From a virus (taxonomy: Duplodnaviria > Heunggongvirae > Uroviricota > Caudoviricetes): a stretch of DNA of 40,499 bases. Numbering within the stretch: position 1 is the stretch's first letter; each line of letters starts with the position of its first letter. The notes under the pieces were generated by a model. That model was not told the origin of the DNA. It made no database searches and saw only the letters and a program-made list of their open reading frames with translations. A program made the translations under genes and the position numbers. Shown here in pieces: positions 1,610-7,490 of this stretch. The stretch is from the IMG/VR virus record IMGVR_UViG_2667527965_000002; one strand, written 5' to 3'.

Positions 1610-1649
1610 AGTTATTTCTCCATTATCCCGGCTGCACCCGGGGAAAATT

Positions 1650-2228
1650 TTAGTTGTTGCTGGTGGTTGGGATTAGTTTCTGCCAAATCGCTGAAACATA
1701 TTTCGCCTGGTGGCGGGCATCAGCCAGTGCGTTATGTGCAACCCCATCAAATGGCATATCACGCTTAGGATCGAAACCTACAACTCTGCCTAATGTGACG
1801 ATGGTTCTGACGTCGTGATCATTCCAAAATTGCCACGGGCAAACCTGGCCGGCACGCTCATATGCGCCGCGCAATATAACGTTGTCGAAAGTAGCTCCAT
1901 TGCCCCAAACTTTTAAATATTTAGGGTTATCAGAATGCCGATTAATGAAATGGCTCAGTTCAGATAGGGCAGATGATATCGGCATCGCATCATCAACACA
2001 GATTGCTGATCGTGCTTCTGAGCTTTGTCTTAACCACCACAGAATAGTGTCACCGTCCGGCACCGCTCCCTGCTCCATAGCGCTTTCAAGATTAACAGCG
2101 GTGTAAAACTCCTGACCCAGTTCACCACTTTGCGGATCGAATAACACGGCACCAATGGAGACGATAGGGGCATTCGGCTTTTTGCCCATAGTTTCAAGAT
2201 CGATCATTAAATTGTTCACGTTATACAT
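1650..2228 (-). CDS. DEDDh-type 3'-5' exonuclease (DnaQ-like)
   Basis: MIDLETMG Exo I motif and later H-x4-D (HNALADA) motif; ATG at 2228 overlaps upstream stop (ATGTATAA); the longer track ORF begins with a non-ATG codon. Confidence 0.75.
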   Translation of the reverse strand: MYNVNNLMIDLETMGKKPNAPIVSIGAVLFDPQSGELGQEFYTAVNLESAMEQGAVPDGDTILWWLRQSSEARSAICVDDAMPISSALSELSHFINRHSDNPKYLKVWGNGATFDNVILRGAYERAGQVCPWQFWNDHDVRTIVTLGRVVGFDPKRDMPFDGVAHNALADARHQAKYVSAIWQKLIPTTSNN

Positions 2229-4628: not shown

Positions 4629-5546
4629 TTAGGCTGCGGGTTTTTGTGGCTGTTCTTCTTTGTACGAAAGAAGATCACACATCAGGTTTACTACTTTGCT
4701 GAATTGGAGTAGATCCGTCCCGGCCTGATGGCGCCATTGAAATGCTTTATCATCTTCATCGTTGAATGTTTGGGCTTGGGTATTGATGCGCGAAAAATGG
4801 AAATTTTCGGTGAGGATGAACGATACACCGCATCCTGCTAGCTCCATTTTATCAGCGGTAAAGCCGCTATTAAGGCTATCAACTAGCTCGCTTTGAATTG
4901 AGTCGTGTTCAGCTGAGTAGCGAATAACTTCATTTTGATCGGCAAGGCGGGACAGCTGGATATAATTGCCGACGGTAAACCCTTCAAAAGCATTGGCCAC
5001 GCCATTGATATAGTTTTTCAACCGCGTAGTTAAACCGTTCTTAATATCGCTAATGTTGATTGTTTCTGTTTTAACGGAACCGACAACTTTCACCAGCATA
5101 GCCACAGCCATACCGGCAATATTTTTATTGGTCGTATTGACCACTAATAGCTTTTCGTTGGTGCTGTACAACGCAAGGATCAGCGTTGATTTAACAAATG
5201 CCCGTTTACACAGGTCAACGCGGACGCTGTCGATAATTGCTAATCGTTCGATACGTTTGATTTTACTCCCGGACATATCTTCGATTCTTTGGATCCGTGC
5301 TGCGGCTTCCTTCAAAACAACATGCTGGGGAATGATTTTCTGATCATGGCGGATCACGATGGCATACCCACCTGATATTGGGGTGACCAATTCGCCAGTG
5401 ATCGGGTTTGGCACAAAAGAGGCGCGTGAAAACTCAGTTTCACCAATCTCGGAGTAGGGGAGTTCAAGCAGATGCCCCTCGATAGCTTCAATGCTAGGTA
5501 GTGTGGCGCGGTACACGATTGCGTTACGGAACTTAGGTAATTTCAT
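4629..5546 (-). CDS. rdgC: Recombination-associated protein RdgC-like
   Basis: 305 aa; N-terminus MKLPKFRNAIVYR and length match the RdgC family. Confidence 0.8.
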   Translation of the reverse strand: MKLPKFRNAIVYRATLPSIEAIEGHLLELPYSEIGETEFSRASFVPNPITGELVTPISGGYAIVIRHDQKIIPQHVVLKEAAARIQRIEDMSGSKIKRIERLAIIDSVRVDLCKRAFVKSTLILALYSTNEKLLVVNTTNKNIAGMAVAMLVKVVGSVKTETINISDIKNGLTTRLKNYINGVANAFEGFTVGNYIQLSRLADQNEVIRYSAEHDSIQSELVDSLNSGFTADKMELAGCGVSFILTENFHFSRINTQAQTFNDEDDKAFQWRHQAGTDLLQFSKVVNLMCDLLSYKEEQPQKPAA

Positions 5547-5730
5547 TTAACTTTCCTCTGCACAAGGTTTTAGTCCATACACGAAGTTAAGGCGGCTGCC
5601 ACCGCCGAACTTTCTCCATACACAACAGAGAAGGGCACCTGCATTGGTCGGCGGCTTGAGAGACCGCTTTCTTTTTGCCCGGGTGGATTGGGTTATGAGC
5701 CCGTCGCCCGGTGATGCCCTTTTCTGTTGT

Positions 5731-5778
5731 GTAAAAAGGGCGGTACCAGCTAATTGATGGGATGTAACTGGTACCGCC
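5731..5778 (-). terminator. Strong hairpin (11-bp perfect stem GGCGGTACCAG, 18-nt loop) followed by a 5-U run on the minus strand
   Basis: Inverted repeat 5739-5749/5768-5778; plus-strand A-run 5733-5737 gives U-run after stem on minus strand. Confidence 0.45.
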
Positions 5779-6124
5779 AACACTTCACGCAGCATTCAAG
5801 TTGTGGCGCCAGGCGCTTGTCTTCTGGTTGTCTCGATGGACTGCAATTCACCACAACGAAGAGAACATTGCCGGTGTTCGAATCGAACGAACCTTTTCCC
5901 TGCCCAACCCTCCCAACTAAATGGGACTGTCTGGAATCGAACCAGCACTTATGCCTTGCTCGTCAATGTTCTCATCGTTGTGCCCTGAAAAAGGCTGGCG
6001 GTTACCGGAAATACACGGGAAAACACCGGGCCGCCAGAACAGGGAAGTACTTGTTATTGCTTTGGCCTGCTTTTAACCACATCAGGCGTGGTGGTATCTT
6101 GGTGTTCTCACACAACCAAGAGGG

Positions 6125-6328
6125 ATGTTTATGGGCGCTTTTGATAACCAGGAAATTACGTTACCCGCATGCCCTAAGTGCGGCACTAAGACGAAGAAGA
6201 AAATCGCTTGGCTCAAGTCGAACAAAAGTTTCACTTGTCGATGTGGAGCTACTATCAATGTCAACAGCAGCCAGCTTACTTCCGAAATCAGGATGGTTGA
6301 GGACAAGCTGAAGAAGCTCTTTAAATAG
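6125..6328 (+). CDS. Small zinc-ribbon protein (CPKCG-x17-CRCG)
   Basis: 67 aa ORF with purine-first codon periodicity, AGAGGGA upstream of ATG, and an intrinsic terminator 28 nt downstream; overlaps 3' part of the convergent ORF 6161-6526. Confidence 0.45.
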   Translation: MFMGAFDNQEITLPACPKCGTKTKKKIAWLKSNKSFTCRCGATINVNSSQLTSEIRMVEDKLKKLFK

Positions 6329-6526
6329 TTTTTTATCGACTGATATTATTTCGTTATCAGAGGTTGGTTTTTCAGCCTCTGATTTTTTAGTCAGGATCAT
6401 TTTTTCTACACATGTGACTACGCATTCCGAACAGATGGCAGGTTCGTCCTTACCACCTTTTGCGACGATCTTTATCGCTCCCAGTTCGGTTGCTCCGCAA
6501 AATGAGCATGTGAATAAATGATTCAT
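6161..6526 (-). CDS. ClpX N-terminal zinc-binding-domain-like protein, first gene downstream of the pL-like promoter
   Basis: N-terminal 45 aa (FTCSFCG ... KIVAKG ... ICSECVVTC) parallels ClpX ZBD (CSFCG ... KLIAG ... ICDECVDLC); ATG at 6526 with GAGG upstream; C-terminal two-thirds is low-complexity and antisense to ORF 6125-6328, so the true 3' extent is uncertain. Confidence 0.5.
   Translation of the reverse strand: MNHLFTCSFCGATELGAIKIVAKGGKDEPAICSECVVTCVEKMILTKKSEAEKPTSDNEIISVDKKLFKELLQLVLNHPDFGSKLAAVDIDSSSTSTSETFVRLEPSDFLLRLSAALRACG
6356..6388 (+). terminator. Rho-independent terminator, plus orientation
   Basis: Stem ATCAGAGG/CCTCTGAT with 12-nt loop, followed by TTTTTT. Confidence 0.6.
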
Positions 6527-6635
6527 GTAAACCTCTACCCCCAACCTAAGTTTTCTGTCAGCGAATCATCCGGTTATTCATATGCCACCGGCGGCTACTT
6601 CGTGGGCGTCCTGCCTGTTCGCTTTCGATGCAATG

Positions 6636-6665
6636 ACTATAGCTACATTAAGTAGATAATTGCAA
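6636..6665 (-). promoter_or_regulatory. pL-like promoter with embedded operator-like palindrome
   Basis: Minus strand -35 TTGCAA (6665-6660), 18-nt spacer, -10 TATAGT (6641-6636); spacer contains CTACATTAAGTAG. Confidence 0.45.
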
Positions 6666-6770: not shown

Positions 6771-7490
6771 TTAGCCAAACTCTATCATTTTTAGAGGTAA
6801 GCATCTGATTAGCTTGCCGAATATGTATAGTTCATTCATTTCATGCTCCTCTATGAAGAAGGGCGGGTAATGTTCATTGTCTGAAAGAACTGCCAGTCGG
6901 CGCCCTTTTACCTTCTGCAAACGTTTAACGAACGTACTGTCTTCAAAATTGAACACATAAACGCCGTCGCCGCTGAATTGTTCAACCTTGCTGTCTATGA
7001 AAAGCAGGTCCTTTGGGCAAAGCGTGGGCATCATGCTATCGCCATCAACATTTATCATGACGATGCCATCAAGGCTTCTACGACCAAACAACTCGAAGAT
7101 CCTCTCTTCTGGAATCTCTATTGAGCTCACTATTGTAGGGAATGGTTGGTTTATATATCCGGAACCGGCTGAAGCATGAACATCCAATTGCTCTATTCTG
7201 ACCGTGCCTTTGGCTGGCGCGTCGCCACCATTAACAGGCACACCATAATCAAGATAAGCCGGTGAGACGGCAAGTCTTTCTGCAATTCGAATCATCTTCT
7301 CATCTCTCGGCTTTGCAGTACCAAGAGTGTAGCGCCGCGCCATCTCATACGAGACACCACTGAACTCTGACAATTCTTTAACTCCAATAGATTGCTCTTG
7401 GAGAGACCTGTTTAGCCTTTCGGCAAAGTCTTTGTATTTAGCATTTTCCACCATAAGTAGAAGATTAAGCGCACAAGGCATAGTTGTCAT
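6771..7490 (-). CDS. cI: CI-like prophage repressor (HTH plus S24 LexA-like peptidase domain)
   Basis: 239 aa; N-terminal HTH region and C-terminal GDSM ... K peptidase S24 motifs; divergent from Cro-like gene; no obvious SD so possibly leaderless, alternative start 7454. Confidence 0.85.
   Translation of the reverse strand: MTTMPCALNLLLMVENAKYKDFAERLNRSLQEQSIGVKELSEFSGVSYEMARRYTLGTAKPRDEKMIRIAERLAVSPAYLDYGVPVNGGDAPAKGTVRIEQLDVHASAGSGYINQPFPTIVSSIEIPEERIFELFGRRSLDGIVMINVDGDSMMPTLCPKDLLFIDSKVEQFSGDGVYVFNFEDSTFVKRLQKVKGRRLAVLSDNEHYPPFFIEEHEMNELYIFGKLIRCLPLKMIEFG

What the first reader, a model, noticed from the sequence alone, without database searches (positions are those of the whole stretch)
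5547..6545. Repressor-proximal module: ClpX zinc-finger-like ORF convergent with an antisense zinc-ribbon ORF and an embedded terminator
Directly downstream of the pL-like promoter (6636-6665), where lambda carries N and rexAB, the first ORF (6161-6526, minus) starts with a segment that parallels the ClpX zinc-binding domain (CSFCG ... KIVAKG ... ICSECVVTC). Its 3' two-thirds is antisense to a plus-strand zinc-ribbon ORF (6125-6328) that looks coding and is followed by a plus-oriented intrinsic terminator (6356-6388) lying inside the minus ORF. A standalone ZBD could compete with ClpX for adaptors or substrates. Upstream, 5547-6125 has no convincing ORF but holds an 11-bp-stem hairpin with U-run (5731-5778), a GTTCGAATCGAAC palindrome (5872-5884), a second AATCGAAC copy (5935-5943) and a boxB-like GCCCTGAAAAAGGC (5976-5989). 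This could be an antisense-regulated or toxin-antitoxin-like module, or a novel immunity/anti-host function.
Basis: partly seen in the sequence, partly recalled or inferred. Interest (0 to 1): 0.7.

Follow-up and report, generated by a model that had tools for sequence, protein, structure and literature searches.

The report
Two-strand gene pair plus tRNA-like RNA
Next to the repressor of an E. coli prophage, a small zinc-ribbon gene is encoded codon-for-codon on the strand opposite the tail of the first early-left gene, and the "empty" DNA beside it carries a widespread, undescribed tRNA-like RNA; both features are real and conserved, but what they do is unknown.

Summary
The window is a lambdoid prophage of E. 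coli FAM21845. The minus ORF (6526-6161) starts with a ClpX-type zinc finger. Pfam E is 7.6e-6, 0.8 bit under the cutoff.

Its last ~55 residues are the exact codon-register antisense of a real plus-strand gene (6131-6328, 65 aa). That gene has its own predicted extended -10 promoter, Shine-Dalgarno and strong terminator.

- **Zinc-ribbon gene.** It is under strong purifying selection (omega 0.20). It has 293 mostly stand-alone relative clusters.
- **The cassette.** It recurs in at least nine lambdoid lineages. Each time it is fused in frame to a different first early-left gene.
- **The minus-frame tail.** It is certainly part of the ORF. It looks weakly constrained (omega 0.50, against 0.86 in controls).
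- **The "ORF-free" stretch.** It holds a 251-bp insertion (5726-5976), absent from the Nissle 1917 prophage. It encodes a 130-nt tRNA-like RNA on the minus strand with two T-arm look-alikes, then a cloverleaf-like piece and a terminator.
- **That RNA.** It has at least 129 copies in viral contigs. About 92% lie downstream of a cI-type repressor. Rfam has no match.

The boxB resemblance is on the wrong strand. No toxin-antitoxin evidence was found. Function is unknown for all parts.

The parts
6636..6665 (-). pL-like sigma-70 promoter (TTGCAA-18-TATAGT) that drives the early-left operon
   Evidence: Consensus scan, 9 of 12 positions. It lies just downstream of the LexA/cI-type repressor gene 6771-7490.
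6161..6526 (-). First early-left gene, 121 aa. An N-terminal ClpX-ZBD-like zinc finger is joined by a linker to a C-terminal tail that is antisense to the zinc-ribbon gene
   Evidence: ORF list. PGAP name. phrog_20296 matches full length. The same C-terminal ~70 aa is fused to at least eight other N-termini.
6404..6511 (-). ClpX-type C4 zinc-finger-like domain (residues 6-41; Cys7, Cys10, Cys32, Cys35)
   Evidence: Pfam PF06689 E=7.6e-6, 26.2 bits against cutoff 27. phrog_5259 E=2.8e-20. The only PDB sequence matches are ClpX ZBDs, E about 0.2, with the cysteines aligned.
6329..6370 (-). Conserved minus-only linker (..EIISVDKK), antisense to the 3' UTR of the zinc-ribbon gene
   Evidence: Differences by minus codon position are 2.92 / 2.39 / 5.36. 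Synonymous variation is seen: Ile ATA/ATC/ATT, Asp GAT/GAC, Lys AAA/AAG.
6161..6328 (.). Overlap of the two ORFs in the same codon register (plus position 1 = minus position 3). There are 54 sense/sense codons. The minus stop is the antisense of the Leu11 codon (TTA/CTA) of the plus gene
6072..6100 (+). Predicted promoter of the zinc-ribbon gene: -35-like TTTAAC/TTAACC, then extended -10 TGGTATCTT (6092-6100)
   Evidence: The block ..CCAC.TCAGGC...GTGGTATCTTGG.. is conserved upstream of the gene in lineages with different flanks. This is a prediction from sequence only. The consensus scan did not list it.
6118..6124 (+). Shine-Dalgarno AAGAGGG, 6 nt before ATG 6131
   Evidence: Conserved as AAGA(A/G)GG in nearly all lineages (AAAAAGG in a few, absent as such in L048).
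6131..6328 (+). Zinc-ribbon gene, 65 aa (CPKC..CRCG followed by a C-terminal helix)
   Evidence: Intact in 37 of 38 related loci. Omega is 0.20, CI 0.11-0.33. There are 293 relative clusters at E<=1e-3, nearly all 62-76 aa stand-alone proteins. AlphaFold pLDDT is 75 from a single sequence.
6356..6389 (+). Intrinsic terminator of the zinc-ribbon gene, lying inside the minus ORF
   Evidence: 12-bp stem plus T6, -17.6 kcal/mol, z -7.2. On the minus strand the hairpin is preceded by an A-run, with no U-run after it. In Kluyvera the stem changes CAGAGG/CCTCTG to CAGGGG/CCCCTG, a compensatory change.
5726..5976 (-). 251-bp insertion relative to the Nissle 1917 prophage, flanked by the direct repeat GTTGTG (5726-5731 and 5977-5982)
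   Evidence: Pairwise alignment. The complete insertion is in 1 of 5426 complete E. coli genomes, and most of it is in Citrobacter phage phiNP.
5852..5981 (-). 130-nt conserved tRNA-like structured RNA. It has a 17-bp closing helix, T-arm look-alike 1 (5945-5931), a variable hairpin, the conserved stretch GGGCAGRGAAAAG, and T-arm look-alike 2 (5892-5876)
   Evidence: The covariance model scores 155.8 bits on the minus strand and 35.4 on the plus strand. 93% of cells pair and 14 pairs show compensatory changes. There are at least 129 copies in viral contigs. 109 of 118 copies lie downstream of a cI-type repressor on the same strand.
5797..5854 (-). 58-nt cloverleaf-like piece without a T arm (closing stem GUGGUG/CGCCAC), directly after the 130-nt RNA
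   Evidence: It occupies the place of tRNA-Arg(UCU) in SPN1S-type phages and of a tRNA-like fold in locus L011. It is 82-89% identical to Sashavirus intergenic DNA.
5733..5778 (-). Intrinsic terminator that ends the inserted RNA cassette (14-bp stem plus U5)
   Evidence: -24.3 kcal/mol, z -6.0. phiNP has the same hairpin.
5982..5995 (+). boxB look-alike GCCCTGAAAAAGGC; judged to be a chance resemblance
   Evidence: It reads as boxB only on the plus strand, which pL does not transcribe. The enclosing minus-strand hairpin is not unusual (z -0.8). The motif abuts the insertion junction.

Best explanation
The finding is a mosaic of three separable things in the early-left (pL) operon of a lambdoid prophage.

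**1. The first pL gene.** It encodes a ClpX-zinc-finger-like domain. In Salmonella phages this domain is a complete 61-66 aa protein. Here it has no stop codon of its own, so it reads on into the next element.

**2. The zinc-ribbon cassette.** This is a self-contained unit of about 330 bp in the opposite orientation. It has a predicted extended -10 promoter, a Shine-Dalgarno, a 65-codon zinc-ribbon gene and a terminator. The upstream gene runs through the cassette in the exactly complementary codon register. It stops at the antisense of the zinc-ribbon gene's Leu11 codon. Two proteins are therefore encoded on opposite strands over 54 codons.
- Shown: both frames are intact in every lineage.
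- Shown: the zinc-ribbon gene is strongly constrained.
- Shown: the minus frame is contiguous with real domains.
- Inferred: in the lysogen, with pL repressed, the cassette promoter expresses the zinc-ribbon protein.
- Inferred: after induction, convergent pL transcription and about 260 nt of complementary RNA silence it, and perhaps damp the first pL gene.
- Inferred: the terminator stops cassette transcripts from running into pL and antisense into the repressor gene.

**3. The 'ORF-free' stretch.** It carries an inserted RNA cassette oriented with pL. This consists of a 130-nt tRNA-like RNA, a cloverleaf-like piece and a terminator. The RNA is probably cut out of the pL transcript by tRNA-processing enzymes. 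Its function is unknown.
For: **Context**
- The window is the E. coli FAM21845 prophage. The repressor, rdgC and the ZBD gene are annotated there.

**Zinc finger**
- Searches support the ZBD-like assignment.

**The cassette recurs with different partners**
- The C-terminal ~70 aa is shared with proteins whose N-termini are complete stand-alone PHROG families: AlpA (phrog_2790), phrog_1273 and phrog_1744.
- In most loci where the context was read, this is the first gene after a cI-type repressor; in L014 it lies between lysis and terminase genes.
- A search with the zinc-ribbon protein is blind to the minus frame. It still found both ORFs intact, with the minus stop at the same codon, in 37 of 38 loci and nine architectures.

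**Selection**
- Plus-frame omega is 0.20 (0.11-0.33).
- Minus-frame omega is 0.50 (0.32-0.81). The same statistic is 0.85-0.87 on rdgC, cI and CP76 controls.
- No TTA, CTA or TCA occurs in either frame across 19 x 54 overlapped codons. These codons do occur just outside the overlap.
- The linker shows minus-frame codon periodicity.

**Zinc-ribbon family**
- There are 293 relative clusters, mostly stand-alone.
- They sit in immunity and early regions of other temperate phages. One is convergent with, but does not overlap, the first leftward gene.
- pLDDT is 75.

**Expression signals**
- The promoter-like block, Shine-Dalgarno and hairpin are conserved.

**RNA cassette**
-.
Against: - There are no expression data for either strand. 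The promoter is only predicted, and the consensus scan missed it.
- The minus-frame tail is modelled poorly (pLDDT 40-57), and its amino acids are less conserved than the plus frame.
- Its omega interval (upper bound 0.81) nearly touches the control values.
- The complementary frame is also open in a distant, non-overlapped homologue. Openness is therefore partly a property of the protein's composition.
- Outside E. coli and Kluyvera the downstream hairpin lacks a good U-run.
- Nissle 1917 lacks the RNA cassette, so it is dispensable for this phage type.
- No function is established for any of the three products.
Confidence: 0.72

Rival explanations
1. Only the zinc-ribbon gene matters in the overlap. 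On this view the ~55-70 residue tail of the first pL protein is a tolerated read-through by-product of inserting the cassette at the gene's 3' end, with no function of its own.
For: - The zinc finger is a complete 61-66 aa protein in Salmonella phages.
- In EPP-1 the N-terminal domain seen in L040 has a different tail that runs into a different convergent gene.
- The tail has low pLDDT.
- The minus-frame amino acids diverge 1.2-2.4 times faster than the plus-frame ones.
- The complementary frame is open even in a non-overlapped distant homologue.
Against: - All nine architectures are in frame. Chance would give one in three, and would also need loss of the native stop codon.
- Minus-frame omega is 0.50 against 0.86 in controls.
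- Stop-creating Leu and Ser codons are avoided through repeated synonymous switches.
- The linker shows coding periodicity.
Confidence: 0.3
2. The plus ORF is a chance open frame inside a single real 121-aa gene.
For: PGAP annotates only the minus ORF. The word-indexed protein search found the plus product called in only one genome.
Against: - Omega is 0.20 conditional on the minus frame.
- The four cysteines are conserved through synonymous TGT/TGC changes, while the minus frame changes STST to AAAG at the same sites.
- There are 293 stand-alone relative clusters.
- The start codon, Shine-Dalgarno and terminator are conserved.
- pLDDT is 75.
Confidence: 0.03
3. The pair is a toxin-antitoxin or abortive-infection module, in which one small protein or its antisense RNA neutralises the other.
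For: - Convergent overlapping transcription resembles type I TA systems.
- The position is in an accessory slot of the prophage.
- The neighbouring repressor of the Nissle prophage gives partial immunity to lambda and stx phages (PMC5987069).
Against: - No defence or TA family matches.
- Neither product is hydrophobic or membrane-like.
- The N-terminal partner varies freely between lineages.
- Distant homologues of the zinc-ribbon gene occur without any overlapping partner.
Confidence: 0.07
4. The tRNA-like element is not a functional RNA. On this view it is decayed tRNA genes, or a DNA-level site such as inverted-repeat ends of a mobile element or a recombination linker.
For: - SPN1S-type phages have a real tRNA-Arg directly after it.
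- The closing helix sequence also encloses unrelated interiors in Sashavirus and in L011.
- In the window it arrived as part of an insertion with a 6-bp direct repeat.
Against: - Decay would not preserve pairing through 14 compensatory pairs.
- It would not keep both 7-nt UUCRAUU loops with only R varying.
- The strand asymmetry is 156 against 35 bits.
- 92% of copies are co-oriented with an upstream repressor.
- The inserted unit is larger than the helix-bounded part, so the helix arms are not its termini.
Confidence: 0.15

Closest known systems
ClpX N-terminal zinc-binding domain (Pfam PF06689; structures 1OVX, 2DS5)
   Same: It has the C4 pattern CxxC-21-CxxC. The best profile match and all PDB sequence matches are ClpX ZBDs.
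   Different: It has no AAA+ module. The protein is 121 aa. The score is 0.8 bit below Pfam's cutoff. It is fused to an unrelated tail. Adaptor binding is untested.
Lambda oop RNA/cII, P22 sar/ant, and convergent-promoter interference in coliphage 186 (from general knowledge)
   Same: A short, oppositely oriented transcription unit with its own terminator overlaps the 3' part of an early regulatory-region gene.
   Different: Here the antisense transcript encodes a conserved protein. The overlap is codon-aligned over 54 codons. No regulation has been demonstrated.
Prophage morons (promoter-gene-terminator cassettes)
   Same: It is a compact autonomous unit found behind different neighbours in several phage lineages.
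   Different: It is inserted so that the neighbouring gene is always fused in frame through it.
YrlA-type bacterial Y RNAs (Chen et al. 2014, PMC4201824)
   Same: Both have a long 5'/3' closing stem. Both then have a V region, a T arm with a canonical loop, and a variable acceptor-like stem-loop.
   Different: A second T-arm look-alike stands where YrlA has a D arm. The GNCGAAN0-1G motif is not conserved. No Rfam family reached E<=10 on this region except a 12-bit partial tRNA match and a chance-level snoRNA match. The element lies in pL operons, not next to rsr.
Lambda nut boxB
   Same: The 14-nt string resembles nutR boxB.
   Different: It is on the wrong strand for pL, has one G fewer in the stem, and has no boxA or N.
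HK022 put RNA (PMC9378689)
   Same: Both are structured RNAs in the early part of a pL transcript in a phage without N.
   Different: put is about 70 nt with two stems, directly after pL. There is no sequence similarity between the window's leader and the HK022 immunity region. The tRNA-like RNA lies about 650 nt downstream.

Membership tests
ClpX zinc-binding domain (zf-C4_ClpX) | Four zinc-ligand cysteines as CxxC...CxxC | tested here: met
   Cys7, Cys10, Cys32 and Cys35 align with the ClpX cysteines.
ClpX zinc-binding domain (zf-C4_ClpX) | Profile score at or above Pfam's gathering cutoff | tested here: not met
   26.2 bits against 27.0, E=7.6e-6. Close relatives P0001, P0009 and P0010 carry precomputed PF06689 hits.
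ClpX zinc-binding domain (zf-C4_ClpX) | Dimeric fold that binds SspB-type adaptors and substrates | not testable with these tools
   The AlphaFold model of this region has pLDDT 54-65.
ClpX unfoldase | AAA+ ATPase module after the zinc finger | tested here: not met
   The protein is 121 aa. NCBIfam clpX scores 21 bits against a cutoff of 359.
Antisense overlapping protein-coding gene pair | Both frames intact in all relatives | tested here: met
   37 of 38 loci and nine architectures. The minus stop is always at offset 33.
Antisense overlapping protein-coding gene pair | Purifying selection on each frame conditional on the other | tested here: inconclusive
   The plus frame is clear: 0.20 (0.11-0.33). 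The minus frame is 0.50 (0.32-0.81) against controls at 0.85-0.87 (0.70-1.04). Pairwise comparisons are not phylogenetically independent.
Antisense overlapping protein-coding gene pair | Both products expressed | not testable with these tools
   Only predicted signals are available.
Intrinsic terminator | G+C-rich hairpin followed by a U-run on the transcribed strand | tested here: met
   6356-6389 on the plus strand and 5778-5733 on the minus strand.
tRNA | Cloverleaf with an anticodon arm, recognised by ARAGORN or Rfam RF00005 | tested here: not met
   ARAGORN finds none in the window or in 60 related loci at the element. RF00005 gives 12 bits, E 9.8, covering only the T arm and 3' acceptor.
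YrlA-type Y RNA | Closing stem, then V, T arm, acceptor-like stem-loop and D arm | tested here: not met
   The stem, T arm and variable stem-loop are present. The D-arm position holds a second T-arm-like hairpin supported by covariation.
YrlA-type Y RNA | GNCGAAN0-1G motif in the 5' strand, and a neighbouring rsr gene | tested here: not met
   The 5' strand reads ACAACGAUGAG and varies between copies. The neighbours are the repressor and rdgC.
Lambda N/nut antitermination | boxB hairpin on the pL transcript, with boxA and an N protein | tested here: not met
   The motif reads as boxB only on the plus strand. The first pL gene is a zinc-finger protein.
Toxin-antitoxin or defence system | Match to a known toxin, antitoxin or defence family | tested here: not met
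   No hits for either window protein: PADLOC none, Pfam/NCBIfam only the ClpX zinc-finger match and weak zinc-ribbon matches.

The most novel reading that the evidence does not exclude
Two readings remain open, and they are independent.
- The overlap could be genuinely dual-coding: two functional proteins read from complementary codons of the same 54 triplets. This would be maintained across at least nine phage lineages as a lysogeny-to-induction switch.
- The 130-nt RNA could found a new class of tRNA-mimicking RNAs made from the early-left transcript of temperate phages. Examples would be a decoy for tRNA-directed host enzymes or defences, or a processing or antitermination element.
Probability: 0.3. 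Interest if true: 0.8.

Novelty: new variant of a known kind. Interest (0 to 1): 0.6.

Why it matters
**The overlap.** Conserved, codon-aligned antisense overlaps of two protein genes are rare and disputed in bacteria and phages. This case has unusually clean comparative support, because it uses non-overlapped flanks of both genes as internal controls. It is also cheap to test, using mutations that are silent in one frame and create a stop in the other.

**Annotation.** Standard pipelines miss the better-conserved gene of the pair. They report a fused 'ClpX zinc finger protein' whose tail is dictated by the other strand.

**The RNA.** The tRNA-like RNA is an unannotated family with well over a hundred copies at a fixed place beside the immunity region. 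That is where anti-host and regulatory functions cluster.

**Practical link.** The related Nissle 1917 prophage contributes to that probiotic's resistance to lambda and Stx phages.

Tried and rejected
- **Known tRNAs and RNA families.** ARAGORN and Rfam, at gathering and permissive thresholds, found nothing for the upstream region. The only hit was a 12-bit partial tRNA match.
- **Naming the zinc-ribbon protein.** Pfam, NCBIfam, PHROGs and PADLOC gave only weak generic zinc-ribbon hits: Lar, YnfU, DUF7695. No cluster member carries an informative name (one is 'hypothetical protein').
- **Fold search.** Foldseek against the PDB returned only ribosomal zinc ribbons.
- **Word-indexed protein search with the plus ORF.** It found only the window's own genome, because gene callers suppress the ORF. 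The exhaustive HMMER search was needed.
- **An intrinsic terminator at 6030-5985 on the minus strand.** Its folding energy is unremarkable, z -0.8.
- **A D-arm reading of GGGC-AGGGAAAAG-GUCC.** It conflicts with the covariation-supported second T-arm hairpin.
- **The conserved pL leader as a put RNA.** It has no similarity to the HK022 immunity region and no unusual folding energy.
- **Literature.** Searches by topic and by the RNA's own sequence found nothing describing either feature. Pas sRNAs are unrelated elements near the lysis genes.
Full report
**Source and layout.** The window matches a prophage of E. coli FAM21845 at 99.9% identity. RefSeq annotates a LexA-family (cI-type) repressor at 6771-7490 on the minus strand. 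It also annotates a 'ClpX C4-type zinc finger protein' at 6161-6526 (minus) and rdgC at 4629-5546 (minus). Nothing is annotated between 5547 and 6160. A sigma-70-like promoter sits at 6665-6636 on the minus strand. The finding therefore covers the start of the early-left operon, where lambda has N.

**The zinc finger.**
- Residues 6-41 of the minus ORF match Pfam zf-C4_ClpX at E=7.6e-6. The score is 26.2 bits against a cutoff of 27.
- The only PDB sequence matches are ClpX zinc-binding domains, with the four cysteines aligned. They are weak, at E about 0.2.
- PHROG 5259 is a 70-position family of small phage proteins. It matches residues 1-56.
- In Salmonella the same domain is a complete 61-66 aa protein.
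- So the domain is ZBD-like but is not ClpX. Whether it binds ClpX adaptors was not testable.

**The tail belongs to a mobile cassette.**
- The last ~70 residues recur at 54-75% identity at the C-terminus of proteins with unrelated N-termini. These include an AlpA-type HTH in Kluyvera, phrog_1273 in Serratia, and the 68-position family phrog_1744 in Ewingella-type phages.
- In most of these loci this is the first gene after a cI-type repressor. In L014 it sits between lysis and terminase genes.
- At the DNA level, every such locus also carries the plus-strand zinc-ribbon ORF intact.

**An unbiased sample.**
- I searched with the zinc-ribbon protein, which says nothing about the other strand. 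This returned 35 viral loci plus Shimwellia and Ewingella genomes.
- One locus has a frameshift and one is unrelated.
- In all the others both frames are open. The minus ORF always stops at the antisense of the Leu codon in 'LPAC'.
- New N-terminal architectures appeared: 226, 141 and 126 aa, plus short forms.
- Under a chance model, the upstream real genes would keep their own stop codons and be in frame only one time in three. Open upstream extensions of 56-156 codons in six architectures would each have probability of roughly 0.0006 to 0.07. This is my calculation from the lengths.
- The fusion is therefore real, and the tail is translated whenever the gene is.

**Which strand is under selection?**
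- The two frames use the same triplets, so plus position 1 is minus position 3.
- Across 19 distinct sequences, variable columns by plus codon position number 20, 9 and 30.
- I ran an OLGenie-style partition. It compares changes that are non-synonymous in both frames with changes synonymous in one frame.
  - Zinc-ribbon gene: omega 0.20 (0.11-0.33).
  - Minus frame: omega 0.50 (0.32-0.81).
  - The same antisense statistic on ordinary genes of these phages (rdgC, repressor, CP76) is 0.85-0.87 (0.70-1.04).
- The cysteines stay fixed through TGT/TGC changes. Meanwhile the minus frame drifts from STST to AAAG.
- Neither frame uses TTA, CTA or TCA anywhere in the overlap, although Leu and Ser codons switch repeatedly. 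Those codons do appear immediately outside the overlap in each gene.
- The minus-only linker has third-position-biased variation: 2.92, 2.39 and 5.36.
- My reading: the plus gene is the dominant constraint, and the minus tail is translated and probably under weaker constraint.
- Caveats:
  - Pairwise comparisons are not independent.
  - The tail models poorly (pLDDT about 40-57).
  - The complementary frame is also open in a distant homologue that nothing overlaps.

**The zinc-ribbon gene is a real family.**
- An exhaustive HMMER scan found 293 clusters at E<=1e-3. Nearly all are 62-76 aa proteins aligned end to end.
- None carries an informative name or reaches any curated family's score cutoff.
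- A single-sequence AlphaFold model gives a zinc ribbon plus a C-terminal helix at pLDDT 75. The PDB offers only generic ribosomal zinc-ribbon neighbours.
- Distant members lie in the immunity and early regions of other temperate phages. They sit near S24 repressors, CP76-type regulators or integrases.
- One is convergent with the first leftward gene without overlapping it.

**Expression signals of the cassette.**
- Upstream of the gene, a block containing TGGTATCTT (6092-6100, an extended -10) is conserved across lineages whose flanks differ. A -35-like hexamer lies 16-17 bp before it. The Shine-Dalgarno AAGAGGG (6118-6124) is conserved too.
- This fixes the start at ATG 6131.
- Downstream, the 6356-6389 terminator is strong on the plus strand only.
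- Kluyvera keeps the hairpin through a compensatory change. More distant lineages keep a hairpin but lack a good U-run.
- These signals are predictions. No transcript data were available.

**Likely mechanism (inferred).**
- The arrangement resembles lambda oop/cII or convergent-promoter interference.
- With pL repressed, the cassette can be expressed.
- After induction, head-on transcription and about 260 nt of complementary RNA would shut it down and might trim the first pL gene.
- The terminator protects pL and the repressor gene from antisense read-through.
- No toxin-antitoxin or defence signature was found.

**The 'ORF-free' stretch.**
- Against the Nissle 1917 prophage, which is 99% identical in the flanks, the window has a 251-bp insertion at 5726-5976. 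It is bounded by GTTGTG repeats.
- Part of the insertion (5846-5987) is about 91% identical to non-coding DNA in several other phages: Stx2a phages, Salmonella SPN1S, F1055 and 118970_sal3, Edwardsiella EPP-1, Klebsiella Kp4866-6 and Citrobacter phiNP.
It yielded 65 distinct cores.

**Structure of the RNA.** On the minus strand these sequences fold as follows:
- a 17-bp closing helix;
- a hairpin GG-UUCRAUU-CC;
- a hairpin that varies in sequence but always pairs;
- an invariant purine tract GGGCAGRGAAAAG;
- a hairpin GUCCG-UUCRAUU-CGGAC.

**Support for that structure.**
- 93% of cells pair, against 36-48% when partners are slid.
- Fourteen pairs carry compensatory changes, and 0 of 500 shuffles reach that.
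- A covariance model scores the window copy at 155.8 bits on the minus strand and 35.4 on the plus strand.

**Where the RNA sits.**
- 109 of 118 copies with enough flank have a cI-type repressor upstream on the same strand. The median distance is 744 nt.
- It is therefore a regular passenger of pL transcripts.

**What the RNA is not.**
- It is not a tRNA.
- It is not in Rfam.
- It shares the stem, V, T and acceptor-like order of YrlA Y RNAs (PMC4201824). It lacks their D arm, their Ro-binding motif and an rsr neighbour.

**What follows the RNA.**
- In SPN1S-type phages it abuts a real tRNA-Arg(UCU).
- In L011 it abuts a tRNA-like fold.
- In the window and in Sashavirus it abuts a 58-nt cloverleaf-like piece without a T arm.
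- This suggests that RNase P-type processing defines its 3' end.
- The closing helix also encloses other interiors.
- The cassette ends with a strong minus-oriented terminator at 5778-5733.

**boxB.** GCCCTGAAAAAGGC lies at 5982-5995. It reads as boxB only on the plus strand and sits at the insertion junction. I treat it as a chance resemblance.

**Verdict.**
- The ClpX-competition and toxin-antitoxin ideas remain untested or unsupported.
- The most informative results are three. The gene pair is a conserved, codon-aligned two-strand arrangement. Annotation reports only the less-constrained partner. The neighbouring 'empty' DNA carries an undescribed tRNA-like RNA family.

Noticed in passing
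window 6556-6623 (minus strand; pL leader): The ~68 nt between the pL -10 and the first gene are 82-97% conserved in more than 50 temperate phages with different repressors. Examples are ST64B, SfII, SfV, SfIV, mEp237, ZF40, and Yersinia, Providencia and Aeromonas phages. Folding energy is unremarkable (z +1.5). There is no similarity to the HK022 immunity region, which holds put.
   Followed up: partly
L055 about 1640-1660, L001 about 1630-1650 and L058 about 1645-1660 (minus strand), just 5' of the tRNA-like RNA: A 5-bp hairpin with a purine-rich 7-nt loop (CCNGG-GAAGAGA-CCNGG) sits 2-3 nt before the closing helix in Stx2a, SPN9TCW and Klebsiella phage copies. Its stem shows compensatory changes.
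   Followed up: no
L002 2738-2989 (+) and L057 2012-2200 (+): Other phages carry different small convergent plus-strand genes in the same slot after the first pL gene. In EPP-1 the gene overlaps the 121-aa minus gene by 33 nt. The slot seems to collect oppositely oriented cassettes.
   Followed up: partly
window 5754-6311 (+) and 6082-6306 (-): Long mechanical ORFs (185 aa from a TTG start, and 74 aa) cross the RNA cassette and the zinc-ribbon gene. Comparable ORFs are annotated as hypothetical proteins in F1055 and 118970_sal3. They are probably spurious.
   Followed up: no
L042 1501-1694: One viral contig has a 1-nt deletion that frameshifts the zinc-ribbon gene and breaks the minus frame as well. 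This is either a pseudogene or an assembly error.
   Followed up: no
window 6771-7490: The repressor carries the same RefSeq protein accession (WP_032140310.1) in the window's source genome and in E. coli Nissle 1917; if that gene is Nissle's prophage-3 'pr' (EcN_1294) – my inference, not checked – it is the one reported to reduce plating of lambda and stx phages more than 200-fold when cloned (PMC5987069).
   Followed up: partly
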